DNA from: Candidatus Dojkabacteria bacterium
GTDB taxonomy: Bacteria; Patescibacteriota; Dojkabacteria; B142; OLB20
Assembly (NCBI GenBank): GCA_030583785.1
Contig: CP129475.1
Span: 1,042,209 to 1,106,208, forward strand
Direction: 5' to 3'
DNA: 64,000 nucleotides
The position numbers and the translations under genes are program-made. Positions 29,209 through 49,738 of this stretch are shown here, in pieces. A model generated the notes under the pieces. It did no database searches. It was given only the letters and a program-made list of their open reading frames with translations, and was not told the origin of the DNA. Positions within the stretch are counted from its first letter, which is position 1. Each line of letters starts with the position of its first letter.

Positions 29209-29904
29209 GTGAAATTTTGCGTAAACATGCTTAAAAAACTGCTTGCCGTAATCATTTTAATAATTATTCTTGCGGCTCTTGCGTTTTGGTCTCCTTGGCA
29301 GAAATGGGATTTGAGTTTTTCAAGACTGCTCGGGATTGATGCCAGAGAAGAGTTTGCTGCACTCAAGGTTAAATCATTAGCCGGGGATCTTGATGTATAT
29401 CTGGACGGAGAGCTTGTGGGTCAAGTTTCAGCAGAAGAGGACTTTCTAGAAGTATTTCCCATTGACCCTGGTGAGCATACAGTAAAACTAGTAAGAAATT
29501 CTACAATCTCTTATCCAGAAGTTATTAAGAAGCTGAACTTTGAGCCTGCAGTGGATGTGATTATCGGTTACGAGATTGGCCCAAATGAAGCCTTCTCAGA
29601 GGGGCATATCTTATATGCCAGAAGAAGTTATACAGCTAACGAAAATCCACTTCTAGAGATATATTCTGTACCAGAAGCTGTTCGGGTTCTATTAAATGGC
29701 GAAGAGATCGGACAGACACCTCTAAGAAGCATTTCTCTACCTTTAGACACAAAACATAAGCTTAGATTCGAAAAAGATGGATACGATTCTTTAGAAATCG
29801 AGATATTGCCCGACAATCAATCAGATAGAGAAAAACTTAAAAATACAGTCTTAACATTAGAGGTAAACTTATTTGCCCAGCCTATACCAATTGTTGAACA
29901 ATAA
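29209..29904 (+). CDS. Membrane-anchored PEGA-domain protein. The start may be the ATG at 29227.
   Basis: An N-terminal TM helix followed by two PEGA-like beta modules (YSVPEAVRVLLNGEEIGQTPL; DVYLDGELVGQVS). Confidence 0.55.
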   Translation: MKFCVNMLKKLLAVIILIIILAALAFWSPWQKWDLSFSRLLGIDAREEFAALKVKSLAGDLDVYLDGELVGQVSAEEDFLEVFPIDPGEHTVKLVRNSTISYPEVIKKLNFEPAVDVIIGYEIGPNEAFSEGHILYARRSYTANENPLLEIYSVPEAVRVLLNGEEIGQTPLRSISLPLDTKHKLRFEKDGYDSLEIEILPDNQSDREKLKNTVLTLEVNLFAQPIPIVEQ

Positions 29905-32900
29905 TGTCGCAAAAACTAAACAATACAAGTAAATACCCAACCTCTCTGTTAGTTTCGGGAGGCGATGCCTTGGGGATAGAAATTGCCAAATCATTACTAG
30001 AACAGGGTGGATATGTAATTATAATTGACAATATTTCTCAGAGAGCTCAAGAGATTTATTCTCAGCTCGGGAGCTATGAATTATTGACACTTCTAGATTA
30101 TGATTCGATTGCTACTCTGGACGACGACCTGCGAAGGCTTGATTATGTTTTCTATTTTAAACATCAGTCGAGCGATCTGTTTGAGTCGTTATCATCCCAA
30201 GATTTTTTGCAGGCATCCAATTACCTTGATGCAGTTCTAGATCTAACAACAAAATTTGAGGCAAAGTTCTTGCTGACAACCTCGATCAAGGCTCATCAAT
30301 TTGCCATTGAATCAGGAGAGACAAAAAAAACAAATAAATACTCAGATATTGAAATACAAAAGTACAGCGAAGGATTGGTCGAGGAGTATCGAGATCAAGT
30401 TGGTATAGATGCCAGAATAGTTAGGCTCGGTGAACTACTGGGCAAGGGAATGGATATTGCAGCGAATACAAAGCTAGTAAAAATGATGTATCAAGCCATA
30501 AACGGAGAACATCTTACATTACCTGGCGATGGCCTTGAAAGTGATTACTATGTTCATTATCTTGATGCTGCCTACGGCATATTAAAGGCACAATTCTCTA
30601 TGAACACGAGAGCAAAAACATTCTCTTTGGCGAATGACGAAGAAGTCACCTTGCTGTCAATAGCCTATAAACTACTTGAACTAGAGCCTGATGCTAAAGA
30701 GATTATCTTTAACCAAAACGATAATAAACTTCCACCAATCAAGATTTATCATCCTGCCCCGAATCTTAATACCATCGGCTGGAAGCCGAGAGTTAGTCTT
30801 GAACGGGCTCTAGTTCAGTCTTTGGACTACATGCGAATAGAACAAGAAAAAGAGACAAAGGTTCCAGATGCCCCTTCTGGCGATAATCAACCAGAAGCTA
30901 GAATCGAAAAAAAAGGCTTCTTAGAACTAATTCGTGGTTTTTTTTTCGTTCAAACTAAGCAAAGCAAAAATGAGAGCGAAGAAGATCAATCAATAGACGG
31001 GGCTCTGCAACGACTTGTTCAGGAGAGAAAGATGCAAGAAAGAATGCGCAAAGGAAGTATTGTCCTTGCCAATTCCAAAATCCGTCAAAGACTAAAACCA
31101 CAAAAGCAACTTACTACCCTCGAAAGATTTGCAAAACAGTTGAATAAGTCATTTTCTTCACTAAAAAAGCATTTCTATTTTTTAAGAAATATTACTCTCG
31201 GCGATTTTGCACTTATCATTGGGGGTTTAATTGCCTTTTCAATTCTCTATTTTTTGATAGTTTCCCCGATTTTAAGTCTGGGTAGAAATATATATTTCAT
31301 CTCTACAAATTCAGACGGTCTTGTTAATGCCCTTCAGGCTTATGATATCGATTCCGCCACAGAGCGTGCCGAAAACATAAATACTAATCTTGCTGAGGCG
31401 CAACTCCGATTAGCAGACATAAACTTTCTTTTCGGCCTCTTGCAACAAAGGGACGAGTACCTTCAATACCAAACTCTACTTGCAGATGGGAAAGAGTATT
31501 CTGCTGGTTTAATCGATACCTTAAGAGCTCTTCAACCCTTTTCCCAACTAGTTAAAGAGTTTGAGCCAAATGTTGTCTATCGCATTAGTGAAGGAAATTT
31601 ACTCGCCGCAAGTCCTGCTCCTATCATGGCCACTTTAATTGAAGATATTAATAACAATTCTGCGGCAATTCGAATCGGGGTCGCCAGAATGGAGAAAAGT
31701 AAAGAACGATTAATTGCTGGTATCGAGAACTCACCAGATTTTCTTAAGCAGATTATTAAACCTTCGATTATTGATATTAATGGCTATTATCAAAACTTTT
31801 CTTCCTTAGCGACCTCCTATGAGTTTATGCCAAAGCTATTAGGCAGAAATTCTCAAAAAGCATATCTTCTTGTTGTCCAAGATAATGCAAGATATACAGC
31901 TGGAGGTGGTGAAATTGTCGGGTTTATATATTTCCAGGTGAAAGATGGATCTTTAGCGGGAATATCTGCGATTCCTATCTCCAGTAATCTAAATGCAGAT
32001 CTTCCCTTGTCCAGTAAGGCAATTTCCTCAATAAATCTTCTCTCGAACAAAGATGTTAATTCAGAAAATGCATTACTTAGCGATGTGGCACTTATTGGAA
32101 ACACTGATTTGCGATTACAGGCCTTAAAAGAAATATTTATGGCTAATGAAAACAAACCTGTCGATATCATTGCTTCTGTTAATCTTAATCTTCTTGAAGA
32201 GTTTTTAAGATACAGAGGTGCGGTTGAATATCAGCAGGTAAATTTTTCTGATGATAACTTACTGTCAGGTATAAACTTATTAATGGGTTCAACACAAACA
32301 AAGAGTAATAGGGATAATATCATTCTGAACTTGTATTCAAAAACAATTGCTCGAGAGTTTAATAATCTGAGTGACGACTTTCTAAATACAGTTCAGATTG
32401 TTGCTCAAGCAAGAGAATCTGGTGATTTGCACCTTTACTCAGAAGAGATTGATCTAAAAAATTATTTGATAGCTACATCAACTTCTCCTTCTCAGGCATC
32501 AGATAGAATTAGTTTCGGACTAAATTATGATCAAGAGAAAATCCTGATTAATAAATATCCGATTATTAATATATCTGTGATTGTTGATGTAAACAAAGAC
32601 TTAAGTACTAGTAAGCAAATAATAGTATCTGCAGCTGGCACAGAAGGCTTGCAGAATATTTATGTTTGTAATCCTAACGGATCGAAAAACTTCACTTATC
32701 CAGGGGTAGATCCCTTGCTTGTTACAAATACTTTCAGTTCCGACATCTTTTGTACTATCTTCCTAGAAGACGATGATATTCGCTATGAAATGTTCTTTGA
32801 TACTCTGACCTTTGAAAATAGTTCCTCAACAGGTTATAATTACAATCTGGAGTTAGTAAAGAATCCAGGGATAAGCGCAAACTACGACATAGAGTTTCGC

Positions 32901-33020
32901 TTTAATCCTGAACTAGAGGTAAACCCCCAAAGCGTAGACTATTTAGAGCAGGGTGGTTCATTCATTTACTCCGGCGTCCTTAAAGGCGATTTAAGATTTA
33001 GATTTGATATTAAACAATAA
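29904..33020 (+). CDS. 1038-aa bitopic protein of unknown function. It has a degenerate Rossmann/epimerase-like cytoplasmic domain, a single TM near aa 430-455, and a ~580-aa extracytoplasmic domain.
   Basis: N-terminal LLVSGGDALGIEIAKSLLEQGGYVIIID is a GxGxxG-like Rossmann motif. The central hydrophobic helix is FALIIGGLIAFSILYFLIVSPIL. The large C-terminal region has no recognisable motifs. Confidence 0.6.
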   Translation: MSQKLNNTSKYPTSLLVSGGDALGIEIAKSLLEQGGYVIIIDNISQRAQEIYSQLGSYELLTLLDYDSIATLDDDLRRLDYVFYFKHQSSDLFESLSSQDFLQASNYLDAVLDLTTKFEAKFLLTTSIKAHQFAIESGETKKTNKYSDIEIQKYSEGLVEEYRDQVGIDARIVRLGELLGKGMDIAANTKLVKMMYQAINGEHLTLPGDGLESDYYVHYLDAAYGILKAQFSMNTRAKTFSLANDEEVTLLSIAYKLLELEPDAKEIIFNQNDNKLPPIKIYHPAPNLNTIGWKPRVSLERALVQSLDYMRIEQEKETKVPDAPSGDNQPEARIEKKGFLELIRGFFFVQTKQSKNESEEDQSIDGALQRLVQERKMQERMRKGSIVLANSKIRQRLKPQKQLTTLERFAKQLNKSFSSLKKHFYFLRNITLGDFALIIGGLIAFSILYFLIVSPILSLGRNIYFISTNSDGLVNALQAYDIDSATERAENINTNLAEAQLRLADINFLFGLLQQRDEYLQYQTLLADGKEYSAGLIDTLRALQPFSQLVKEFEPNVVYRISEGNLLAASPAPIMATLIEDINNNSAAIRIGVARMEKSKERLIAGIENSPDFLKQIIKPSIIDINGYYQNFSSLATSYEFMPKLLGRNSQKAYLLVVQDNARYTAGGGEIVGFIYFQVKDGSLAGISAIPISSNLNADLPLSSKAISSINLLSNKDVNSENALLSDVALIGNTDLRLQALKEIFMANENKPVDIIASVNLNLLEEFLRYRGAVEYQQVNFSDDNLLSGINLLMGSTQTKSNRDNIILNLYSKTIAREFNNLSDDFLNTVQIVAQARESGDLHLYSEEIDLKNYLIATSTSPSQASDRISFGLNYDQEKILINKYPIINISVIVDVNKDLSTSKQIIVSAAGTEGLQNIYVCNPNGSKNFTYPGVDPLLVTNTFSSDIFCTIFLEDDDIRYEMFFDTLTFENSSSTGYNYNLELVKNPGISANYDIEFRFNPELEVNPQSVDYLEQGGSFIYSGVLKGDLRFRFDIKQ

Positions 33021-33519: not shown

Positions 33520-34758
33520 ATGGAACGACATTCTGTCCCACAGAACATCATGGATGTTGAATTCAAGTTGTTCGGATCGTTCACTATCAAACAATTTGCT
33601 TATCTTGCAGCAGGCTTCATTGGAGCCTTGGTTGTATTCGTGTCGCCATTTCCTGACTTACTAAAGATGATACTGTTGCCTATGAGCATGATTCTAGGCA
33701 TATTTCTTGGAGTAATAAAAATTAATGGCCAACCATCAAGTGTGTTCTTGAGTAATTTCATAGCAGCTCTTTTCTCATCTCAAACAAGAATTTGGCAAAA
33801 GAGCTCAAAGACACCAGAAATGCTTCAAGAAGCTAGGGCTGCAATTAACCCAAAAGATGTTGAGGTTTTACAAGTTGCTACAAAAACATTAAATCGAAGC
33901 TCTAAACTGATGCCACTGCAGAGTCTAGTTATTGAAGAAGAGAACGAACTAGATAAAGAGGAATCAGATCGTCTTGAACAGATTGAAAAGCATTTCAATT
34001 TTGCCGTTGGAGATCTAGAAAAGGAGACAATGAGAGCTGAAATTGAAACAAAAAAAGTAAGTCCTCCAAAGTTGCCATCTCCTCCAGATACAGCAATAGA
34101 GCAGCCTCCGATTTTTCATATTGATCCCGAAGCCGATAATTTGGCAGGATCTATTGCACATAAAGAATTACAAGGTGAGCCAATTTTAAGAACAAATAAA
34201 TATGCAACCATCTATAAACAGATGCAGTCGCAAACAAATAGACCAATTGTTGAGGAAACTTCACAGCCTAAAGCTGAAGAAATAGTACAAGAACAGTTAC
34301 CAGAGCAGGTACAAGGGCAGGTACAAGAGCAGGTAAAGGAACAAGAAGTTGTAACCGACTCGGTGACTAATGCAGATGCTCAAGTTCAGGCAGAGCCCTC
34401 AGTATCTGTAGAAACCGAGAATAAGGTGGAAAATAAAGAGGCAATTGTGACACAAGTTCAGACAAATATTCCAAGTCCACCACTTATTCCTCAGCACAGA
34501 AAACCAAATATTGTTGCTGGAATTGTTGTTGATAAGAACGACAAGCCTATTGCTCATGCCACCATCGAGTTTAAAGATGAGAGAGAACAACTTCTAAGAA
34601 AGGTCACGACAACAGTAAATGGTACATTTGGATTAAGTACCCCTCTTCCTAACGGAACATACCGGGTTGATATTAATGCTGAAGGCTTTAAGTTTAATCG
34701 TTTTGAGCTTATACTTTCAGGAACGGCATTGCCTAATTATAAATTTAAGGCCAAATAA
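33520..34758 (+). CDS. PrgI/VirB3-like two-TM conjugation/T4SS protein fused to a long low-complexity (Q/E/V-repeat) region and a C-terminal carboxypeptidase-regulatory-like beta-sandwich domain
   Basis: N-terminal VPQNIMDVEFKLFGSFTIKQFAYLAAGFIGALVV...MILLPMSMILGIFLGV matches the PrgI/TcpE/VirB3-like hairpin-TM pattern. A QVQGQVQEQVKEQ repeat follows. The C-terminal domain is IVAGIVVDKNDKPIAHATIEFKDE...VNGTFGL...GTYRVDINAEGF. Confidence 0.5.
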   Translation: MERHSVPQNIMDVEFKLFGSFTIKQFAYLAAGFIGALVVFVSPFPDLLKMILLPMSMILGIFLGVIKINGQPSSVFLSNFIAALFSSQTRIWQKSSKTPEMLQEARAAINPKDVEVLQVATKTLNRSSKLMPLQSLVIEEENELDKEESDRLEQIEKHFNFAVGDLEKETMRAEIETKKVSPPKLPSPPDTAIEQPPIFHIDPEADNLAGSIAHKELQGEPILRTNKYATIYKQMQSQTNRPIVEETSQPKAEEIVQEQLPEQVQGQVQEQVKEQEVVTDSVTNADAQVQAEPSVSVETENKVENKEAIVTQVQTNIPSPPLIPQHRKPNIVAGIVVDKNDKPIAHATIEFKDEREQLLRKVTTTVNGTFGLSTPLPNGTYRVDINAEGFKFNRFELILSGTALPNYKFKAK

Positions 34759-34763
34759 GATAG

Positions 34764-35480
34764 ATGGGACTTTTCACACAATCAACAGTTAGCACACAGG
34801 CTCATCTACCTATCGAAGATGTTAGAGATGACCTAGTTGTATTAAAGAATGGGAATGTATCTTTAGTACTAGAAACAACTGCACTTAACTTTGAACTCCT
34901 TTCAGAAAGAGAACAAGATGCCAAGATCCTATCTTTTGCAGGGTTACTAAATTCTCTTGGTTTCCAAATGCAGATTGTAATTATGACCGAAAGAACAGAC
35001 ATGTCAATATACATTGACAGGCTTAGAGCTTATAGGGAGTCACAAATATCAAATTCGTTGCGAAAACAGATCGATATTTACATGAGGTTCATCAATAATC
35101 TAACTATTAATACAGAGGTTTTAGATAAAAGGTTTTTTGTGATAATTCCAGAAATTGTTGCAGAAGTCCAAAGAACTAGTATGATCAAACAGCTATTTGG
35201 CAAACCTGTCAAGATCACAAATATTAGAAGTATTCTTGATAGAGCCAAAGCTAGGGTCTATCCAAAAAGAGACCATTTGATCAAGCAATTCCAAAAAATG
35301 GGTATTTCAGCGCGGCAATTAAATAACGAAGAATTGATTCGTTTGTACTACTCAATCTACGATCCAGATAAGGCGGGAGTTTCAAAGTTAGAGCTCAATC
35401 CATCAGAGATAACAACAGGAATGGTTGGCGCCCTCAAGACAGAGATAGAAGATAAACAATTATCAGAAGTAAAAAAATAA
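34764..35480 (+). CDS. Hypothetical protein between the VirB3-like and VirB4-like genes. It may be related to the VirB4 N-terminal domain.
   Basis: Tightly packed with its neighbours (6-nt and 1-nt gaps). The motif LVVLKNGNVSLVLETTALNFELLSEREQDAKILSFAGLLNSLGF...QIVIM resembles the early-partition region of TraC/VirB4 proteins. No catalytic motifs are present. Confidence 0.4.
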   Translation: MGLFTQSTVSTQAHLPIEDVRDDLVVLKNGNVSLVLETTALNFELLSEREQDAKILSFAGLLNSLGFQMQIVIMTERTDMSIYIDRLRAYRESQISNSLRKQIDIYMRFINNLTINTEVLDKRFFVIIPEIVAEVQRTSMIKQLFGKPVKITNIRSILDRAKARVYPKRDHLIKQFQKMGISARQLNNEELIRLYYSIYDPDKAGVSKLELNPSEITTGMVGALKTEIEDKQLSEVKK

Positions 35481-35481
35481 G

Positions 35482-37440
35482 ATGGGATTAATTCCTTTTA
35501 TCGGAAAAAAGAAAATACAGAAACCTGAAGTCCAAAACGGAAATTTGGCTCAGTCGACTGCATCTCAAGCAAAAAATCATACAAACTCTGTAAGTGTGCA
35601 AATGCAAGGTCAGCCGATAGCTCAAGAAAATAAAGCTGTACAAATGTTCTCTCAGGGCGTGCTGGATGTAAAGGATATAATTGCACCACCGGCTATTGAA
35701 ATTGACTTTAACCATCTTCTTGTAGGAGGAACTTACTTTCGAACTTTCTTTGCTACCGGATTTCCTAGATGGGTAGGCGCTAATTGGTTAGCACCACTGA
35801 TCAATTTTGAGAAACCTTTAACAATTAGTACATTCTATTATCCTGTGGATTCTGCGTTAATAATGCAAAGGTTAAAAAGAAAGATTGCAGAAATGCAGGC
35901 GACGCTAAATCTTGATATTGAGGCCGGAAAAATTCCTGATCCAAGCGTTAAAGTTGCGCTCAGAGACGCAGAAGATTTGCAGGATCAAATAGCCAGTGGC
36001 AACGAAAAGTTCTTCCACTTCGGCTTGTATGTTACTGCGAGAGCAAAGAATCTTAAAGAGCTTGAAAGAATATCCAGAAATGTAGAGTCAACTCTATCTG
36101 CCATTGGTGTTATTGTGAAAATTGCCTCACTTCAACAAGAAGAAGGGTTCATTACTTCTATGCCGTTAGCAGAAGATCGAATTCATTTGACCAGAAATAT
36201 GGATACGACTTCTCTGGCAACAACATTTCCTTTCGTCTCTTCAGAGCTCAGCATGGATGACGGCATTATGTATGGCGTAAACAAGCACAATAAAAGCCTT
36301 ATTGTCTTTGATCGCTTTCAGATGCCGAATGCAAATATGGTAATCTTTGCTACATCCGGAGCAGGAAAATCATACTTTGTTAAACTCGAGGCGATGCGAA
36401 GCCTTATGCTTGGAACCGATGTCATAATTATTGACCCTGAAAAAGAATACGAAAAGATGACCACCACAATAGGTGGAGAATATATTTCCTTCAGCCAGGA
36501 TGGAGATCAGAAACTTAATCCGTTCGAGTTATCAGGAATGTTTGATAAAGATGAAGACGAACTTCGTTTCAAGATTCTTTTCCTTCAGGGTTTAATAAAG
36601 ATTATGGTTGGTGGAAGTCTTAGCCCGATTGAAACGGCAATCTTAGATAGAGCTTTAATCCTTACCTACAAAGAAAAAGGTATTTCCCCTGATCCGGCAA
36701 CTCAAAGAAGAGAACCACCACTGCTAGAGGATCTTTATAAGGTACTCAATGCGATGGCCGAACCGGAAGCACATAATCTTGCTCAGCGACTTGAAAGGTA
36801 CCTTAAAGGTAGCGCAGCAGGTATCTTTGATAGAAGGTCAAATGTAGAAATCAAAAATACTTTTACGGTATTTAGTATTCGAGATCTGACCGATGAAATG
36901 CGACCTATCGCAATGGCAATGATGCTTGATTATATCTGGACTAGAGTTAAAAAAGATCGTCGACAAAGAATATTGATAATTGACGAGGCATGGTGGATGA
37001 TGCAGTATCCTGATGCTGCAAGATTCGTATATTCTGTTGCCAAAAGAGCTAGAAAATATGCACTTGGGCTTACTACGATCAGTCAGGATGTTGAAGATTT
37101 TCTTGATTCAGATTTTGGAAAAGCAGTAGTAACTAACTCGTCTATTCAAATCCTTCTTAAACAAAGTCCTGCAGCCGTTGATCGAATTAAAGAGGTATTC
37201 TACCTTTCAGATGGAGAGAGAGATTACTTGTTAAGTGCAGGGGTTGGAGAGGGATTATTCTTTGCAGGAAACAATCATGTTGCAATGCAGGTAATTGCCA
37301 GTGAGAACGAACATAATCTTATCACTACAAATCCAAAGGAGTTGCTTAAGAAAGAAGCAGAAGAAAAAGCGCTGGCTGGGCAGGCAGAGAATGCTCAACC
37401 GGCAAGGGCAGACTTAGCTTTAAATAGTAGCGAGCAATAA
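35482..37440 (+). CDS. VirB4/PrgJ/TrsE-family type IV secretion ATPase (Gram-positive conjugation type)
   Basis: Walker A FATSGAGKSY, Walker B RILIIDEAWWMM, and an N-terminal APPAIEIDFNHLLVGGTYFRTFFATGFPRWVGANWL block typical of TrsE/PrgJ/VirB4. Confidence 0.8.
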   Translation: MGLIPFIGKKKIQKPEVQNGNLAQSTASQAKNHTNSVSVQMQGQPIAQENKAVQMFSQGVLDVKDIIAPPAIEIDFNHLLVGGTYFRTFFATGFPRWVGANWLAPLINFEKPLTISTFYYPVDSALIMQRLKRKIAEMQATLNLDIEAGKIPDPSVKVALRDAEDLQDQIASGNEKFFHFGLYVTARAKNLKELERISRNVESTLSAIGVIVKIASLQQEEGFITSMPLAEDRIHLTRNMDTTSLATTFPFVSSELSMDDGIMYGVNKHNKSLIVFDRFQMPNANMVIFATSGAGKSYFVKLEAMRSLMLGTDVIIIDPEKEYEKMTTTIGGEYISFSQDGDQKLNPFELSGMFDKDEDELRFKILFLQGLIKIMVGGSLSPIETAILDRALILTYKEKGISPDPATQRREPPLLEDLYKVLNAMAEPEAHNLAQRLERYLKGSAAGIFDRRSNVEIKNTFTVFSIRDLTDEMRPIAMAMMLDYIWTRVKKDRRQRILIIDEAWWMMQYPDAARFVYSVAKRARKYALGLTTISQDVEDFLDSDFGKAVVTNSSIQILLKQSPAAVDRIKEVFYLSDGERDYLLSAGVGEGLFFAGNNHVAMQVIASENEHNLITTNPKELLKKEAEEKALAGQAENAQPARADLALNSSEQ

Positions 37441-38009
37441 TGGACCAATTATTTCAGCAAGAATTCACTTTTACTCTAACCGGAACCGCTCTTTTAGGAG
37501 TTGTTCTATTTTTTATCGTTGCATCGCTTGCATTGGTAATACTGATTTTCTCTTTGATTCGAAAAATTCAGTTATTGCAAAAACCAAAGTACGGTTTTCT
37601 TGGAAAACCTATCTTCTCTGTGCTTGCACTTGTTGGAATTGCTACCACAATGATCTATTTTAGCTACTCCTTCTCAAATCAACCGGATTTTCAAATCAGT
37701 GCGAATCGAACTGTTAATGCAAGTATAGAATACAGGCAGGTTGGAATTAGTGGCACAAAGAAACTTGTGGAATTTCAAGCAGTTCCAGTCGTAGATAATC
37801 GCGAGTATGGATTAAGCTCTGATCGCTTCGAGATTCTTTGGAGGGTAAATAATGTCGATGGAACAGAAAGAATTGAGTATGAACGAACTAAGAATAACCC
37901 CAGTGCCGTATATATTGAACTTGATCCAGGTTCGTATACAGTAAGTGCTATAATCGTTTTTGAGGGTAAATCATATCAGTTTGTTGAACCGGTTATAATA
38001 AATCCCTAA
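37440..38009 (+). CDS. Small two-TM protein with a beta-rich ectodomain, translationally coupled to the VirB4-like gene
   Basis: Its ATG overlaps the VirB4-like stop. N-terminal hydrophobic helices are followed by a soluble C-terminal domain. Confidence 0.5.
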   Translation: MDQLFQQEFTFTLTGTALLGVVLFFIVASLALVILIFSLIRKIQLLQKPKYGFLGKPIFSVLALVGIATTMIYFSYSFSNQPDFQISANRTVNASIEYRQVGISGTKKLVEFQAVPVVDNREYGLSSDRFEILWRVNNVDGTERIEYERTKNNPSAVYIELDPGSYTVSAIIVFEGKSYQFVEPVIINP

Positions 38010-38026: not shown

Positions 38027-38396
38027 TAATTATTGCACCAATTCAGGCAGCTGCGCATTCATTTATGAATGTGAGGAAAGTCCGGACTCCTTCGTTGGCA
38101 ACAGCGAAATGGGCACTGTGGAGACACAGGTGGGCGTGAGCTTACGGAATAAAGGGCAACAGAAAAGATACCGCCTCTTGTTTGAGGTAAGGTTGAAAAG
38201 GTGAGGTAAGAGCTCACCGGTCGACTTGGCAACAAGTCGATGCATTGTAACCCCTGCTCGGAGCAACCTGGCAAATTCAGGGCATCCTTAGGGAACCTTA
38301 GGTAATTACAGAAGCTTAGTAATTTCCGCAGGTAGAGAAATAGCTGTCTAGTTCAAGCAAAGCTTGAATCAAACAGAATCCGGCTTATGAATTGGT
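38027..38396 (+). ncRNA. rnpB: RNase P RNA (bacterial type A)
   Basis: P4 strands GAGGAAAGTCCGGACTCC and ACAGAATCCGGCTTAT are present. GGTAAGGTTGAAAAGGTGAGGTAAGAGCTCACC matches the conserved P10-P12 region. A P1 helix forms by ACCAATTCA/TGAATTGGT. The ORF-track ORFs at 38059-38274 (-) lie inside this RNA and are artifacts. Confidence 0.85.
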
Positions 38397-38403
38397 TAAA
38401 GAA

Positions 38404-38435
38404 AGAACCCGCTTTTAAAGCGGGTTCTTCGTTTT
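38404..38435. terminator. Bidirectional terminator hairpin (AGAACCCGC-loop-GCGGGTTCT + T-run) between rnpB and the convergent yugP-like gene
   Basis: A 9-bp stem with TTCGTTTT downstream and an A-run upstream. Confidence 0.6.
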
Positions 38436-40517: not shown

Positions 40518-41327
40518 ATGGAACGGGCAACTTCGCAATACCCAAAAATTGATCTAGGTTTGGTCAACGCTTCTTCAAATAGACAGCTAATGATATTACC
40601 ACGGGAAATTAAGCCAGAACCAGCTTTTGAACAAACTAGAGGCAATGCAATAGTTAGATTGAGTGGCAATATTATTGATTATGAACTATCTGGACTCCCC
40701 TATAGAGATCATCCTTTTTATGGATATCAGCCTGCTTGGGGAGAGTTCCGCGAATTTGTTCTAGCAGGGTGTCTCTTTAATGGAATTCATCTCGTGTGTA
40801 ATCTTGCTGATCGAATTCATGTGGACAGAATGAACCATTTTATCGAAGATGGTGCAAAAGCAGATATTGAATATAATTTCTCAATACCTCAACAAGGTTT
40901 CCCCTTTGAGCCTGAATATATGTCTTTGCGAGTAATAACATATCCAGAAGGTATTGTTCGTGAGTATCATGGTGATGGAGGTAAAGTATTCGTTTCTTTG
41001 TTGGATACTTTTAACATTGTGCGCTATTATCATGCCGTTAATGAGATCGCTTCAGATGGAGCAGAGATTATTATTGATGAATTTATAGGTCCAGCAGGTT
41101 TTACGACCACTTCAGAATTCAGGGCGATTCTTGAGGAAGCCGGTTTCGAAATTGTAGAAGAAGCTAGATATCTCCAAGATGAAGAAGTACCAGAACAGAT
41201 AAGGGATAAAAATTGTCAACCTAGATATGGTGCCATTGCTCGAATCGTCTGCCGAAGACCTCAAGATGACGATGATGTAGATGATTACTCAACCATTCCA
41301 GATGGTGGAATTGGTGTTTTTGCCTAG
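40518..41327 (+). CDS. Hypothetical protein, a paralog of the next gene. Acidic C-terminus.
   Basis: Shares a C-terminal block with 41403..42167 (IIIDEFIGPAGFTTTSEFRAILEEAGFEI versus SISSEDFIGPGGYSSREQCLQLFRNAGFTC). No other motif was recognised. Confidence 0.45.
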   Translation: MERATSQYPKIDLGLVNASSNRQLMILPREIKPEPAFEQTRGNAIVRLSGNIIDYELSGLPYRDHPFYGYQPAWGEFREFVLAGCLFNGIHLVCNLADRIHVDRMNHFIEDGAKADIEYNFSIPQQGFPFEPEYMSLRVITYPEGIVREYHGDGGKVFVSLLDTFNIVRYYHAVNEIASDGAEIIIDEFIGPAGFTTTSEFRAILEEAGFEIVEEARYLQDEEVPEQIRDKNCQPRYGAIARIVCRRPQDDDDVDDYSTIPDGGIGVFA

Positions 41328-41402: not shown

Positions 41403-42167
41403 GTGGCTGGTGTAGCAACATTAGAAACAAGTGTCGATAATCTCACGGACTACCTAAGGTATCACTCGGGGAAAGAAGTTATCTTGTCAATTGGTTGTGG
41501 TAGAGAAATAACAACACCTAGACATTTTGACCCGAAAAACCAAGTATTAATCGGAATGGATCCACAATTGGACTACCATGATGCAGATGGATCTATAATA
41601 GGAATAAAGGATGGTTATTGTCATGTTGATCGTAGACTTAATATACCATCTCGTATTGCTGATAGAGTTGAGACTCATGCAACCATTGCTTACATTGCGT
41701 CTTATCCTCTGGATCCCTTTTCGTCGAATAGCTATTCTATGGAAATTTTTGAGGAAATTCGATCATTAGATAATAATGGTCTTTACCGAGAGTCTAGAAC
41801 AAGATATAACACTAGCAGGATATACGATATTCAAGGTATGCAGGTCGTCTATCAGCGAAGCGTTATGACAGGTAACGATCAATGGAGAGTTATTGACGCT
41901 TCTCATATGATTAATTGGACTCGAGAGCTTGCAAGAATAATTAAGCATGGTGGTTCAATCTCAAGCGAGGATTTTATTGGACCTGGAGGTTATTCATCGC
42001 GAGAACAGTGTCTACAATTATTTAGAAATGCTGGGTTTACTTGTCCGACATTGAGGGAAATAAGGGATCCTCAACAATCTGCTTCTCAGACAATAAGGGA
42101 TAACCAAATTGAAGGAAACGGTTATGGTCAACCCGTTAGCATTTCAGCTAGAGTATTCCATCCTTAG
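41403..42167 (+). CDS. Hypothetical protein with a divergent class I SAM-methyltransferase-like pattern
   Basis: VILSIGCGRE (motif I-like), an acidic VLIGMDPQ (motif II-like), and a C-terminal HGGSISSEDFIGPGG...AGF region. Confidence 0.4.
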   Translation: MAGVATLETSVDNLTDYLRYHSGKEVILSIGCGREITTPRHFDPKNQVLIGMDPQLDYHDADGSIIGIKDGYCHVDRRLNIPSRIADRVETHATIAYIASYPLDPFSSNSYSMEIFEEIRSLDNNGLYRESRTRYNTSRIYDIQGMQVVYQRSVMTGNDQWRVIDASHMINWTRELARIIKHGGSISSEDFIGPGGYSSREQCLQLFRNAGFTCPTLREIRDPQQSASQTIRDNQIEGNGYGQPVSISARVFHP

Positions 42168-45203: not shown

Positions 45204-46040
45204 TTAGATTCTCTTTCCGATTGTAATTAATCGATGAGAACTGCTTCCCAGAGGTGTGCAGGTGATAATTTTTACCAGATCGTCGTCTGCTGCGTTAAAG
45301 ATAGCCATGTCGTCACCCTCGCGAACTGCTTGAGCCACAATTGAGTATTCATAGGATTGGCCATTGTCTGATTCTAGTCTAATGACATCGCCGACTTTGG
45401 CTCTATCAATGAACCAGCATGATCTTGGATCGTTAGGTCCAAAGTATCTACGATGGCAGAGAAGTATCTTTTCCCCTTTGGCGTAAGATGTCGGGTATAA
45501 CCACATTCCCTGATCGAGTGCAGCATCTCCATCTGAACCTTGTATTACAGGTGAGTTAATATTAATAGAGTCGATTACAATGCGAGAGATTCCTGTTGCT
45601 AAAGGATGAGGAGTAGATTTTACAGTTTCGGCATATGCTTTGATTTCTGTGGTTACAAGATTATCACGAATTCCGGATACTACAACCTCTTGTTGCTTAG
45701 GTAACTCAACCTGATTATTGGTGCTGATTCCTGCAACATTTTGGTCATATCGAGATAGTGACTCAGCTCTCGCAACAACAGAAGTTGCATTGAATGTTTT
45801 ATACGGAATAAAGAATCCGTAATCGAACTGAGCGTTAGTTTCGATGGCTAAAGGTGCATACTGCTGAACTTGTTGATTTTCGTTGTTGCTGGAATATGTT
45901 GGTCTTACGCCAATAATTGATGGTAAATCTGCTCCACCAAGCATGCCTAGGACAATGGAGAGTATGCCAAAGAAGGCAACCAACAATGCCCCAATCATTA
46001 TGAAGATGAAGAATATTCCAGATTTATTCGAATTTTCCAT
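45204..46040 (-). CDS. Sortase-family transpeptidase (membrane-anchored)
   Basis: An N-terminal TM, a His in LLCHRRYFG, the catalytic-Cys motif LVKIITCTP (TLxTC-like), and a downstream Arg. Confidence 0.6.
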   Translation of the reverse strand: MENSNKSGIFFIFIMIGALLVAFFGILSIVLGMLGGADLPSIIGVRPTYSSNNENQQVQQYAPLAIETNAQFDYGFFIPYKTFNATSVVARAESLSRYDQNVAGISTNNQVELPKQQEVVVSGIRDNLVTTEIKAYAETVKSTPHPLATGISRIVIDSININSPVIQGSDGDAALDQGMWLYPTSYAKGEKILLCHRRYFGPNDPRSCWFIDRAKVGDVIRLESDNGQSYEYSIVAQAVREGDDMAIFNAADDDLVKIITCTPLGSSSHRLITIGKRI

Positions 46041-46175: not shown

Positions 46176-47660
46176 ATGAAAACAGTCATATTTGAGTCAC
46201 ATAAAGACAAACAACTTCGTAAAGGGCTTATCGCTTATTCGGTTGTCCTTTTGGCAGGCTTGTTTGTCGCACTATCAGCAGTTCTATTTGCTGGAAGTTC
46301 AGAGGCCTTAGTTGTAGACAGGGGAATCTCTTGTAGCGGTGCCGCTAGAAGTGGAGCTGAATGCAATGTTTTAGGCTATCCCCAAAATGTAAACCACATG
46401 TTTGGTTGCTATAACAAAGGTGCAGGTTTTAAGTGTTACGAAGTTCCTGCAAACTCTAACGAAGCTTTGCCAGGCTGCTTCCTTGACACAGATGGTCAAT
46501 GGAAGAACTGCGGTTGTGATATTGCAGCTTGCGAAAATGCCTGCAGAAATAACAATGCCAACAATCCAGGTAGCCATACCCAAGGATGGACATGTAATGG
46601 CTGCGGACAAAACTTCTTATGTGGATGTACTGTATCTCCAACAATTGTTCCAACTACAGGCACACCAACTCCACCACCTCAGGGATGTCCAAGCACACAA
46701 GCTAGATTTTTGGTCGGAAATAGCGGTCTTGTAAAAAGTGGTCAGTTCCAGTTAACTTCTGTCCCACCTTTTGAATATAGTGTTCTTATTAATGGAGATG
46801 TTAACCAGAAGTTTCAGGGAACTGTAGTATTAACTACACCAAATACATCCAGAACACATAATAATGGTGATACCAGACAAGTACCAACACCTCATGTTGC
46901 CGGGAACTACAGATTAGTTGCCAGTCTAAACGGCGAGGTTTGCGATACTGCAGAAGTTAGACTCATTAACGCAGAGATTACTAATCTGCAATGCTGGGAA
47001 ACAGGATGTAACGATTCTGATAAACAATGTGCTCCTGGATCGGGACTTAGCTGTGTAAATAATCGCTGTGTAAATCCACAGTATCCAAACAATCCCGATT
47101 GTAAACCAGATGTCACTCTCAAGTGCTGGGAAACAGGATGTTCAACTCAAGGTAATGTTTGTGAGAACGGCCTGAGCTGTTTAAACAATCGCTGTGTAAA
47201 CCCGCAGTATCCTGAAAATCCAACATGTGAGGCTGTTCCAGGCATTACATTAGATAAAATGACACCAAATGGTCCCGGACCATACAATGTCGGTCAAATT
47301 GTTCCGTTTAGAATTACAATTACTAATACAGGACAAACAACCTATTCAGTAATTAGTTTTAGAGACAGCTGGAATACAAGTAGGCTCGATTTCATTCGAA
47401 TAATAAATAACGCCAACGGCAACGATGTAACTTCTAACTTCACAATAAACCGAACTATGGGAGTTGTGAGTAGTAATGACATCACCACATTTCTTGGAGA
47501 TCTTGGACCAGGACAGTCTTACAATCTGAGATTCGAGTTTAGAGCATTGGCAGCTACAAATCGAACCTGTAATGATGTTTCGATAGTGCCAAACGGAGGA
47601 AATCAAATGACTGACGATGCTTGTGTATCGATAAATCAACCTCCACCAACAGATATGTAA
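46176..47660 (+). CDS. Signal-anchored Cys-rich secreted/surface protein with two tandem 44-aa CWETGC...NNRCVNPQYP modules and a C-terminal DUF11/CARDB-like beta domain. No LPXTG motif.
   Basis: An N-terminal TM (LIAYSVVLLAGLFVALSAVLFAG), about 40 Cys, tandem repeats, and a C-terminal ITITNTGQTTYSV...GPGQSYNLRFEF segment. Confidence 0.6.
   Translation: MKTVIFESHKDKQLRKGLIAYSVVLLAGLFVALSAVLFAGSSEALVVDRGISCSGAARSGAECNVLGYPQNVNHMFGCYNKGAGFKCYEVPANSNEALPGCFLDTDGQWKNCGCDIAACENACRNNNANNPGSHTQGWTCNGCGQNFLCGCTVSPTIVPTTGTPTPPPQGCPSTQARFLVGNSGLVKSGQFQLTSVPPFEYSVLINGDVNQKFQGTVVLTTPNTSRTHNNGDTRQVPTPHVAGNYRLVASLNGEVCDTAEVRLINAEITNLQCWETGCNDSDKQCAPGSGLSCVNNRCVNPQYPNNPDCKPDVTLKCWETGCSTQGNVCENGLSCLNNRCVNPQYPENPTCEAVPGITLDKMTPNGPGPYNVGQIVPFRITITNTGQTTYSVISFRDSWNTSRLDFIRIINNANGNDVTSNFTINRTMGVVSSNDITTFLGDLGPGQSYNLRFEFRALAATNRTCNDVSIVPNGGNQMTDDACVSINQPPPTDM
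46986..47249 (+). repeat. Intragenic tandem duplication (2 x ~132 nt) encoding the Cys-rich CWETGC modules
   Basis: Read from the sequence: ...TGCTGGGAAACAGGATGT...AATCGCTGTGTAAATCCACAGTATCC... occurs twice in succession. Confidence 0.6.
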
Positions 47661-48922: not shown

Positions 48923-49738
48923 TTAAACTACTCCATACATTAAAACGATAAAGATTAAAAATACTACAAAATATTCTCCGATAATTGCCTTGCTCAGCGA
49001 ACTTACTTGCTGATGGTGGAATACAGCTACAACGAAATAGAATAGTAATGTGGATAACAAGGCAACTGCAAAGTTATTAAATCTAAATGACTGAAGTACT
49101 AATAGAAATGCAATTAATAATAAAGCACCAACGACAAGTGTTTGCAGGCTTCTATTGTTAATCTGCTGTTTTCTAATTAATAACAGCATTGAAAGAACTG
49201 TGTAGGCGATCAAGATCGCTGCTAGAGTTACCCAGCCACTGCTACCCAAAAATCCGAATGTTTGCAGTGCCGAATCAGAAGAGACGAACATCATGATTAT
49301 GACAATGATGTCGTAAATTGCGTGTGTACCTTGCTCAAGTTTGAATTTGTCTTCGTAGTAGGCCCTTACATTGGTAAATAATATCGAAAAGATAATGAAT
49401 ATTATTGCCAGAATTATTAAGTGGGTGGATTTCTGGTGATTGAAAAAGACGAATAGAACAAAAGAGAAGTATGCAAAGCTAGGCAGAATAAAATGATGGA
49501 TTAAATGGATTAGTTTATCTTTCTCGTCAACTTGTGGTAATTGAAATTGATCGAGTAGTCTTCTGGCGTAGTACTTAGTACTATAAAGCTCGAATAATAG
49601 AATTAGATATAGAAATACACTACCAACAAAATAAAATCTATCTGGAAGGTTTTCTAGCAAGGAAATTAAAAACCAAAAACCAGAAGTGATTACTAAAGCA
49701 TAAACTAGGGGGCGTTTTTTCCAATTTATAATATTCAT
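48923..49738 (-). CDS. Polytopic membrane protein (about 7-8 TM), function unknown
   Basis: Hydrophobicity pattern only. Confidence 0.5.
   Translation of the reverse strand: MNIINWKKRPLVYALVITSGFWFLISLLENLPDRFYFVGSVFLYLILLFELYSTKYYARRLLDQFQLPQVDEKDKLIHLIHHFILPSFAYFSFVLFVFFNHQKSTHLIILAIIFIIFSILFTNVRAYYEDKFKLEQGTHAIYDIIVIIMMFVSSDSALQTFGFLGSSGWVTLAAILIAYTVLSMLLLIRKQQINNRSLQTLVVGALLLIAFLLVLQSFRFNNFAVALLSTLLFYFVVAVFHHQQVSSLSKAIIGEYFVVFLIFIVLMYGVV

What the first reader, a model, noticed from the sequence alone, without database searches (positions are those of the whole stretch)
33520..34758. VirB3/PrgI-like membrane hairpin fused to a Q/E/V low-complexity spacer and a carboxypeptidase-regulatory-like beta-sandwich
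PrgI/VirB3-type proteins are normally about 100-150 aa. This one is 412 aa. After the conserved N-terminal two-TM hairpin it has a long acidic, Gln/Val-rich repeat stretch (QVQGQVQEQVKEQ; nt ~34264-34340 shows short tandem nucleotide repeats). It ends in a prealbumin-like domain (IVAGIVVDKNDKPIAHATIEFKDE...GTYRVDINAEGF). Such a domain would be exposed outside the membrane. This suggests the secretion ATPase complex is coupled to a surface or cell-wall-binding module.
Basis: partly seen in the sequence, partly recalled or inferred. Interest (0 to 1): 0.6.

Follow-up and report, generated by a model that had tools for sequence, protein, structure and literature searches.

The report
VirB3/PrgI secretion subunit with tethered beta-sandwich
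This gene encodes the small membrane anchor (VirB3/PrgI) of the chromosomal type IV secretion system of a Candidatus Dojkabacteria (Patescibacteria) genome; it carries a long flexible tail ending in a transthyretin-like beta-sandwich, a layout that is normal for this lineage, and the tail most likely lies inside the cell rather than on its surface.

Summary
ORF 33520..34758 (412 aa) has a PrgI/VirB3 domain (aa 6-90, above Pfam's cut-off) and two transmembrane helices. A helical then disordered acidic linker follows, containing a 12-nt x4.2 repeat. The protein ends in a CarboxypepD_reg/transthyretin-like beta-sandwich (AF2 pLDDT ~97).

It is the first gene of a tight operon: PrgI fusion, TrsD-like, VirB4 ATPase, then a 2-TM/Ig-like protein. 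The operon sits in housekeeping DNA of a Candidatus Dojkabacteria genome, and the protein is identical to WKZ27889.1. This is the published Patescibacteria-type T4SS.

The fusion is the lineage norm. The sandwich is present in 182 of 208 collected homologues and 62 of 65 genome loci. Linkers range from 79 to 453 aa. Near-identical strains differ by exactly one 4-aa repeat unit.

No homologue has a third membrane segment. Charge bias and the established VirB3 topology (both ends cytoplasmic, N-terminus wrapping VirB4) put the tail in the cytoplasm. That is a prediction, and it conflicts with the mostly extracellular habit of this domain type, so the location remains the open question.

No paper searched describes the extension. 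It is a new variant of a known kind, of moderate interest.

The parts
33520..34758 (+). Whole gene: PrgI/VirB3-like protein with C-terminal extension (412 aa). It is identical to NCBI WKZ27889.1 from Candidatus Dojkabacteria.
33520..33585 (+). N-terminal motif MERHxVPQNIMDVEFKLFGxxT (aa 1-22), the most conserved part of the family. It is inferred to be the cytoplasmic contact with TrsD/VirB4.
   Evidence: Nearly invariant columns. The role is inferred from R388 VirB3, which wraps the VirB4 N-domain.
33586..33714 (+). Transmembrane hairpin: helix aa 23-41, turn SPFPD, helix aa 46-65.
   Evidence: Hydropathy; AF2 pLDDT >90.
33736..33819 (+). Amphipathic helix (aa 73-85) and the conserved basic R-x-W-x-K...P motif (aa 90-99). 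This is the end of the PrgI homology region.
33820..34032 (+). Helical, partly conserved segment (aa ~101-171; helices at 111-130 and 143-171; motif D..E..RL.QIEKHF.F).
   Evidence: AF2; conservation among close relatives.
34033..34503 (+). Disordered acidic linker rich in Q/E/V/P (aa 172-328), hypervariable in length and sequence.
   Evidence: pLDDT 40-60. Linker length is 79-453 aa across the family, with no Cys. Substitutions between strains cluster here.
34285..34335 (+). 12-nt tandem repeat (consensus GTACAAGAGCAG, 4.2 copies), which varies in copy number between strains.
   Evidence: TRF. Three of 12 near-identical proteins lack exactly one 4-aa unit, at two different positions.
34504..34755 (+). 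C-terminal transthyretin-like / CarboxypepD_reg beta-sandwich (aa 329-412), always at the extreme C-terminus.
   Evidence: Pfam; AF2 pLDDT ~97. Foldseek matches CnaB2 8bdw and the carboxypeptidase D/N transthyretin-like domains. The domain ends a median of 1 residue from the C-terminus.
34764..35480 (+). TrsD-like protein (238 aa), corresponding to the N-terminal domain of VirB4 encoded as a separate protein. It has no membrane segment.
   Evidence: NCBIfam TrsD 33.9 bits (below cut-off) and VirB4_plasma positions 103-282. Homologues carry PF26593 TraC-like. Hydropathy.
35482..37440 (+). VirB4-family ATPase (652 aa).
   Evidence: NCBIfam conju_CD1110 398.6 bits (cut-off 325); Pfam P-loop_TraG.
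37440..38009 (+). 189-aa operon partner with two TM helices, an invariant basic loop LQKPKYGFLGKP and a C-terminal Ig/FN3-like beta domain predicted to face outward.
   Evidence: It is found downstream of VirB4 in 20 of 65 loci.
29904..33020 (+). Conserved upstream neighbour: epimerase domain, one TM helix, then DUF4012 (1038 aa).
   Evidence: Pfam; TM at aa 435-453. It lies within 1.5 kb upstream in 28 of 46 loci that have TrsD.

Best explanation
The gene encodes the VirB3/PrgI subunit of the chromosomal, Patescibacteria-type (monoderm, MPF-FATA-derived) type IV secretion system of a Candidatus Dojkabacteria bacterium.

Shown: it has PrgI homology and a two-helix membrane hairpin. It is co-linear with TrsD-like and VirB4 genes, with minimal gaps. 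It ends in a confidently modelled transthyretin-like beta-sandwich joined by a linker of very variable length. This layout is the rule in its subfamily.

Inferred from VirB3 biology: the conserved N-terminal motif and the hairpin clamp the TrsD/VirB4 ATPase ring to the membrane, one copy per central VirB4, six per machine. Both protein ends face the cytoplasm.

Inferred further: the helical segment at aa 100-171 extends the contact with TrsD/VirB4. The flexible acidic tether lets the terminal sandwich move around the cytoplasmic ATPase barrel. There it would act as a docking or gating module, recruiting a substrate or adaptor or capping the distal end of VirB4. These systems usually have no relaxase and no coupling protein near virB4, and monoderm systems have no VirB11.

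The Q/E/V repeat only sets tether length and changes by slippage.
For: Identity: PrgI and CarboxypepD_reg both score above Pfam's cut-offs. VirB4 scores above the NCBIfam cut-off, and the TrsD-like match covers the VirB4 N-domain region.

Operon: gaps between genes are 5 nt, 1 nt and a 1-nt overlap. The only strong terminator-like site (a 12-pair stem at 38403-38429) follows the RNase P RNA.

Published system: VirB4, TrsD and PrgI/VirB3 are widespread and chromosomal in Patescibacteria, mostly without a relaxase, and PrgI is essential in S. epibionticum (PMC12102498; PMC10633639).

Conservation: 82 homologues, nearly all carrying both domains. The N-terminal 105 aa alone found 1783 cluster representatives, and 102 of 126 new top hits carry the sandwich. 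Of 65 genome loci, 62 have the sandwich and 55 have TrsD plus VirB4 directly downstream.

Topology: there are no hydrophobic segments beyond aa ~80 in the 82 homologues checked. K+R counts are 2.9, 0.9 and 4.7 for the N-tail, loop and post-TM2 region. VirB3 has two TM helices with short cytoplasmic N and C extensions, wraps the VirB4 N-domain and is sometimes fused to VirB4. The neighbouring 189-aa protein shows what a genuine C-out hairpin looks like in this organism: an acidic N-tail and five K/R in a 16-aa loop.

Cytoplasmic transthyretin-like folds exist among the Foldseek matches, including 5-hydroxyisourate hydrolase, transhydroxylase and catechol dioxygenases. The sandwich is dispensable in some lineages with the same synteny (L020, L022, L023), which fits an accessory rather than a core channel part.
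Against: CarboxypepD_reg and CnaB-type sandwiches are overwhelmingly extracytoplasmic. The best structural matches are surface pilins, adhesins and secreted carboxypeptidases.

The linker composition (P/Q/E/T/S-rich, Cys-free) also fits wall-spanning regions of monoderm surface proteins.

The charge bias is modest when only the 15 residues next to each helix are counted, and the short loop carries a conserved Lys.

Topology was not measured, and no dedicated predictor or multimer model was available. No partner of the sandwich is known, so the docking or gating role is conjecture.

The N-terminal profile found no solved VirB3 structure by sequence. The VirB3 equivalence therefore rests on the Pfam PrgI family and on synteny.
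Confidence: 0.6

Rival explanations
1. The hairpin is oriented N-out/C-out, or only one helix truly spans the membrane. The linker then crosses the wall or S-layer, and six sandwiches form or bind an outer structure. The protein would act as a VirB10/TonB-like arm coupling the ATPase to the envelope.
For: The domain type and best structural neighbours are extracellular. The linker length varies widely (79-453 aa), as might be expected if it tracked envelope thickness. Monoderm T4SSs have no known VirB10 equivalent (PMC12857230). The conserved neighbours are envelope proteins: DUF4012, a PEGA protein and the 189-aa protein. TM1 is only weakly hydrophobic in some distant homologues.
Against: It would put the most conserved N-terminal motif and the basic R-x-W-K-K segment outside, away from TrsD/VirB4. 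That contradicts the known VirB3 topology and the existence of VirB3-VirB4 fusions. The charge distribution favours N-in/C-in. AF2 models both helices confidently as a tight hairpin. There is no wall-binding, sortase or lipobox signal. Some lineages with the same operon lack the sandwich.
Confidence: 0.25
2. The extension has no ligand of its own. It would be a cytoplasmic spacer or self-association element that only stabilises or spaces the VirB3/VirB4 ring, or a tolerated lineage-specific appendage.
For: The linker is hypervariable and changes by repeat slippage. Three loci keep the operon without the sandwich, and about 19% of top subfamily representatives lack it.
Against: The sandwich is retained at the exact C-terminus, at a constant size of 85-90 aa with conserved residues, across Dojkabacteria, WWE3, Woesebacteria and others, at 21-56% overall identity. 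In genomes this reduced, that argues for selection on a specific function.
Confidence: 0.1
3. The tail starts in the cytoplasm, but the C-terminal sandwich is threaded through the machine's own channel. It would end up outside while still tethered to VirB3.
For: This would reconcile the cytoplasmic exit of the chain with an extracellular-type domain. The domain always ends the protein, and T4SS signals are typically C-terminal (general knowledge). The tether is long.
Against: There is no precedent. The last 10 residues are only weakly basic, with mean net charge +1 and 41% of sequences at +2 or more. A stably folded sandwich is a poor translocation substrate, and six tethered chains would block the channel.
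Confidence: 0.05

Closest known systems
PrgI of Enterococcus pCF10 / VirB3 (TrwM of R388, TraL of F): the small inner-membrane T4SS subunit
   Same: It matches the Pfam PrgI family above the cut-off. It has a two-helix hairpin near the N-terminus followed by an amphipathic helix. Its gene lies directly upstream of the VirB4 module.
   Different: It is 412 aa rather than about 100-150. It has an added helical segment, a tether of about 160 aa and a beta-sandwich. It has no detectable sequence similarity to any solved VirB3 chain. VirB4 is split into TrsD-like and ATPase proteins.
Patescibacteria-type T4SS (Quinonero-Coronel et al. 2025, PMC12102498; essential in Southlakia epibionticum, Wang et al. 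2023, PMC10633639)
   Same: It has the same chromosomal PrgI/VirB3, TrsD and VirB4 arrangement within housekeeping genes. No relaxase or coupling protein was seen in the window.
   Different: Those papers' main texts do not mention a C-terminal carboxypeptidase-regulatory or beta-sandwich extension of PrgI. No VirB6 or VirB2-like pilin genes were recognised in this 64-kb window, although I did not scan with dedicated models.
CarboxypepD_reg / transthyretin-like and CnaB domains (carboxypeptidase D/N, Gram-positive pilins, SusC N-terminal extension)
   Same: It matches the Pfam family above the cut-off, and the modelled fold superposes at 1.8-2.9 A over about 85 residues.
   Different: Here the domain is attached behind a two-pass membrane hairpin whose C-terminal side is predicted to be cytoplasmic. 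It has no signal peptide or sorting signal of its own.
VirB10 / TonB-type envelope-spanning arms
   Same: Both have a membrane anchor, a long proline- or acid-rich linker and a C-terminal beta domain. Both are associated with the T4SS energising complex.
   Different: VirB10 and TonB are single-pass (N-in, C-out), whereas this protein has two helices. There is no sequence or fold similarity to the VirB10 barrel, so the resemblance is in layout only.

Membership tests
PrgI / VirB3 T4SS subunit | Match to the PrgI family model (PF12666) above the curated cut-off | tested here: met
   34.6 bits against a cut-off of 27, covering aa 6-90 and profile positions 2-89 of 91.
PrgI / VirB3 T4SS subunit | Two transmembrane helices followed by a C-terminal helix | tested here: met
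   Hydropathy. AF2 helices at 23-41, 46-65 and 73-85 with pLDDT 80-98.
PrgI / VirB3 T4SS subunit | Gene adjacent to and upstream of virB4 | tested here: met
   TrsD-like and VirB4 follow with 5-nt and 1-nt gaps. The same order occurs in 55 of 65 related loci.
PrgI / VirB3 T4SS subunit | Small size (10-15 kDa) with only short terminal extensions | tested here: not met
   The protein is 412 aa. The subfamily median is 364 aa, range 121-873. The definition is from PMC12857230.
PrgI / VirB3 T4SS subunit | N- and C-termini in the cytoplasm; 1:1 binding to the VirB4 N-domain | not testable with these tools
   Only indirect evidence is available: charge bias and the absence of a third TM. No multimer modelling or experiment was possible.
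CarboxypepD_reg / transthyretin-like fold | Match to PF13620 above the cut-off, and a seven-stranded beta-sandwich | tested here: met
   41.8 bits against 32.3. AF2 gives seven strands at pLDDT ~97. Foldseek E-values are 2e-5 to 1e-3 against CnaB2 and the carboxypeptidase D/N transthyretin-like domains.
Patescibacteria-type T4SS | Chromosomal VirB4, TrsD and PrgI/VirB3 cluster without a relaxase nearby | tested here: met
   The flanking genes are ribosomal protein genes, GreA, RNase P RNA and SecA. The description is in PMC12102498.
Patescibacteria-type T4SS | VirB6-like polytopic protein and VirB2-like pilins | tested here: inconclusive
   None was recognised by Pfam among the ORFs scanned. 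A 9-TM ORF with no family match at 48923..49738 (-) was not resolved. Dedicated MPF profiles were not available.
VirB10 / TonB-like envelope-spanning arm | Single N-terminal membrane span (bitopic, C-terminus outside) | tested here: not met
   Two helices form a tight hairpin.

The most novel reading that the evidence does not exclude
The VirB3 extension is an envelope-reaching arm. Either the hairpin has an unconventional orientation, or the tail passes through the machine itself. In either case six transthyretin-like domains would sit outside the membrane of a monoderm T4SS and couple ATPase movements to the wall, S-layer or host contact site. That would be a functional stand-in for the missing VirB10/outer complex in the essential Patescibacteria system.
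Probability: 0.2. Interest if true: 0.75.

Novelty: new variant of a known kind. Interest (0 to 1): 0.42.

Why it matters
The Patescibacteria T4SS is essential for epibiotic growth in the one species tested, and its function and substrates are unknown. Its VirB3 subunit carries a strongly conserved, tethered beta-sandwich in most members of this subfamily, and the T4SS papers I searched do not discuss it. If the domain is cytoplasmic, it is a candidate substrate- or adaptor-docking site in a system that usually has no coupling protein next to virB4. If it is extracellular, it would be the first VirB3 known to reach into the envelope. Either answer gives a concrete handle on the system, through deletion, pull-down or reporter fusion. 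For this particular window, however, the gene is an ordinary, already auto-annotated member of that subfamily.

Tried and rejected
- A homologue search with the sandwich alone (88 aa) returned only one protein. It is the C-terminal fragment of the frameshifted WS6 OLB20 gene, so the search said nothing about the domain's origin.
- A profile of 26 N-terminal regions against all PDB sequences found no VirB3 chain; the only hit was a capsid protein at E = 0.97. A full-length sequence search of the PDB gave only a weak SdrD B-domain match.
- Mossey et al. 2010, the experimental VirB3 topology paper, is not held in the library. The topology statement is therefore taken from reviews and the R388 structure paper.
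- The 189-aa neighbour has only four homologues in the indexed search. Its model is moderate (pLDDT 70), and Foldseek gives only generic Ig/FN3 matches, none at E <= 0.001. I did not assign it to VirB8 or any other T4SS family.
- The promoter scan did not exceed chance (22 found against 23.1 expected), and terminator-like sites were near expectation (8 against 6.5). Only the 12-pair stem after the RNase P RNA is used as context.
- The idea of a basic C-terminal secretion signal is weak: mean net charge is +1 and 41% of tails reach +2 or more.
- I considered and rejected a mobile-element or conjugative origin for the locus. The flanks are EF-G, EF-Tu, ribosomal protein genes, rpoA, GreA, RNase P RNA and SecA, with the same synteny in many genomes.

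Full report
**The observation**

The ORF at 33520..34758 (+) encodes 412 aa. Pfam places a PrgI domain at aa 6-90 (34.6 bits, cut-off 27) and a CarboxypepD_reg domain at aa 332-391 (41.8 bits, cut-off 32.3). The stretch between the two domains is acidic and rich in Q/P/S/T/N: 18% D+E, 10% K+R, 35% QPSTN. VirB3/PrgI proteins are normally 10-15 kDa, and pCF10 PrgI is 117 residues (PMC12857230).

One refinement applies. In the AlphaFold2 model (54-sequence alignment), aa 100-171 form two helices with motifs conserved among close relatives. Only aa ~172-328 are disordered.

**Genomic context**

The next ORF (34764..35480, 238 aa) matches the TrsD/TraD model and positions 103-282 of a full-length VirB4 model. 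It is thus the VirB4 N-domain encoded as a separate protein. The ORF after it (35482..37440, 652 aa) is a VirB4-family ATPase, scoring 398.6 bits on conju_CD1110 against a cut-off of 325. A 189-aa ORF overlaps the VirB4 stop by one base. No strong terminator-like site occurs until a 12-pair stem after the RNase P RNA at 38038-38399.

The rest of the window is housekeeping DNA. It includes EF-G, EF-Tu, ribosomal protein genes, GreA, SecA, a sortase, DsbA-like and glycolytic genes. The protein is identical to WKZ27889.1, annotated [quoted passage not shown], on a 1.17-Mb contig.

This is the chromosomal Patescibacteria-type T4SS described by Quinonero-Coronel et al. 2025. In that system VirB4, TrsD and PrgI/VirB3 are widespread, there is mostly no relaxase, and PrgI is essential in Southlakia epibionticum (PMC12102498; PMC10633639).

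**How common the fusion is**

- A full-length search returned 82 homologues of 264-699 aa. Nearly all are annotated with both Pfam domains, and the named ones come from Dojkabacteria/WS6, Gottesmanbacteria and other Patescibacteria.
- The N-terminal 105 aa alone found 1783 cluster representatives at E <= 1e-3 among 1.84 billion. Most of the best 150 are 250-870 aa.
- An HMM of the C-terminal domain detects the sandwich in 102 of 126 new representatives and in 182 of 208 sequences overall. The domain ends a median of one residue from the C-terminus.
- A scan of species-representative genomes found 135 genomes with a relative, from Dojkabacteria, WWE3, Woesebacteria, Woykebacteria and others.
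- Among 65 loci with enough downstream sequence, 62 have the sandwich, 61 of them in the same ORF. TrsD plus VirB4 lie directly downstream in 55. Ten are orphans with no ATPase nearby. Three keep the operon but lack the sandwich.

The long form is therefore the rule in this subfamily, not a peculiarity of this gene.

**Variation**

The linker ranges from 79 to 453 aa (median 204) and contains no cysteine. The sandwich stays at 85-90 aa.

Within the 12-member 90%-identity cluster of the window protein, three proteins are 408 aa. Each lacks exactly one four-residue unit inside QEQLPEQVQGQVQEQVKEQ, at two different positions. All amino-acid differences between strains fall at aa 230-357 and none in aa 1-229.

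**Structure**

The model gives a tight hairpin (helices 23-41 and 46-65, pLDDT >90). It is followed by an amphipathic helix (73-85), two further helices, a disordered stretch, and a seven-stranded sandwich at pLDDT ~97.

Foldseek against the PDB matches CnaB2 (8bdw), the transthyretin-like domains of carboxypeptidases D, N and M, Gram-positive pilins and the SusC N-terminal extension. It also matches cytoplasmic transthyretin-like folds such as 5-hydroxyisourate hydrolase and dioxygenases. The fold assignment is sound, but the fold alone does not fix the compartment.

**Topology, the crux**

None of the 82 homologues has a hydrophobic segment beyond the first ~80 residues. The two ends must therefore lie on the same side of the membrane.

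Family-averaged K+R counts are 2.9 in the N-tail, 0.9 in the five-residue loop and 4.7 in the 34 residues after helix 2. That last stretch includes the conserved R-x-W-K-K motif. This favours N-in/C-in, although the margin is small if only the immediate flanks are counted.

The literature agrees:
- In the R388 structure, VirB3 wraps the N-domain of the cytoplasmic central VirB4 (PMC9259494).
- VirB3 is sometimes fused to VirB4 (PMC12624023).

The most conserved part of this protein is its N-terminal motif. This fits a contact with the conserved cytoplasmic partners.

The neighbouring 189-aa protein offers an internal contrast. It has an acidic N-tail, a 16-residue loop with five K/R that is invariant (LQKPKYGFLGKP), and a beta domain after helix 2. 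That is the signature of a genuine C-out hairpin.

On this basis I put the probability that the extension is cytoplasmic at about 0.7. This is not a measurement. The usual extracellular habit of the domain and the surface-protein-like linker composition keep the alternative alive, at about 0.25.

**Most likely mechanism**

Shown: PrgI homology, the hairpin, operon linkage to TrsD/VirB4, the fold of the terminal domain, its conservation, and the variability of the tether.

Inferred from VirB3 biology: six copies clamp the TrsD/VirB4 ring to the membrane.

Conjecture: the helical segment extends that interface, and the tethered sandwich works on the cytoplasmic side as a docking or gating element. 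These systems usually have no relaxase and no coupling protein near virB4, and monoderm systems have no VirB11. Loci that keep the operon without the sandwich suggest an accessory part rather than a core channel part.

Rivals:
- An envelope-reaching, VirB10-like arm.
- A ligand-free spacer or oligomerisation element.
- Self-threading of the tail through the channel.

**Comparison with known systems, and novelty**

The protein passes three of the four sequence- and layout-based criteria for PrgI/VirB3 that could be tested and fails the size criterion. It is a member of the family with an added module. The T4SS type is published.

The extension is visible in automatic annotations. However, no paper in the searched library mentions VirB3 or PrgI together with a carboxypeptidase-regulatory domain, and the main text of the Patescibacteria T4SS paper does not mention the extension. 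I rate it a new variant of a known kind, of moderate interest. The gene in this window is an ordinary member of its subfamily, but the subfamily-wide feature is an undescribed and testable handle on an essential system of unknown function.

Noticed in passing
window 29904..33020 (+); also L001, L003, L057, L063 and others: A 1038-aa protein (NAD-epimerase domain, one TM helix at aa 435-453, then DUF4012) lies just upstream of the PrgI gene. In Dojkabacteria only GreA separates them, and in WWE3-type loci it is directly adjacent. It is within 1.5 kb upstream in 28 of 46 loci that have TrsD. The main text of the Patescibacteria T4SS paper does not mention DUF4012, so this may be an unrecognised envelope partner of the system.
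   Followed up: partly
window 37440..38009 (+): The 189-aa last gene of the operon has two TM helices, an invariant basic loop LQKPKYGFLGKP and an Ig/FN3-like C-terminal domain predicted to face outward. It has no family match and is present after VirB4 in 20 of 65 related loci. If the operon has an outward-facing beta-sandwich, this protein is the better candidate.
   Followed up: partly
L024, L026, L027, L029, L032, L033, L041, L047, L054, L065; L084: A divergent subgroup of PrgI-sandwich genes (about 25-27% identity) stands alone, with no TrsD or VirB4 nearby. In L026 it is followed by a very long ORF that starts with a TM helix and runs off the locus. In L084 it sits among SecG and glycolysis genes.
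   Followed up: partly
L005 6001-7306 (candidate division WS6 bacterium OLB20): The orthologue is split by a frameshift into a 312-aa PrgI-plus-linker protein (P0005) and a 122-aa sandwich protein (P0209). This could be a sequencing error or a real disruption.
   Followed up: no
window 38038-38399 (+) and 38403-38429: The RNase P RNA (class A, 166 bits) follows the T4SS operon directly on the same strand and is closed by a 12-pair terminator-like hairpin. The RNA may be co-transcribed with the operon.
   Followed up: no
window 40518..41327 (+) and 41403..42167 (+): Two adjacent ORFs of 269 and 254 aa have no Pfam match but share a C-terminal motif (FIGPAGFTTTSEFRAILEEAGF and FIGPGGYSSREQCLQLFRNAGF). 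They look like tandem paralogues of unknown function.
   Followed up: no
window 48923..49738 (-): A 271-aa protein has about nine hydrophobic segments and no family match. It was not resolved whether it could be a VirB6-like polytopic component.
   Followed up: no
window 45204..46040 (-) and 46176..47660 (+); 29209..29904 (+): A sortase lies next to a 494-aa DUF11-repeat protein with an N-terminal TM or signal sequence, a likely sortase substrate. A PEGA-domain membrane protein heads the gene string upstream of the T4SS operon. Both point to a monoderm surface-protein repertoire.
   Followed up: no
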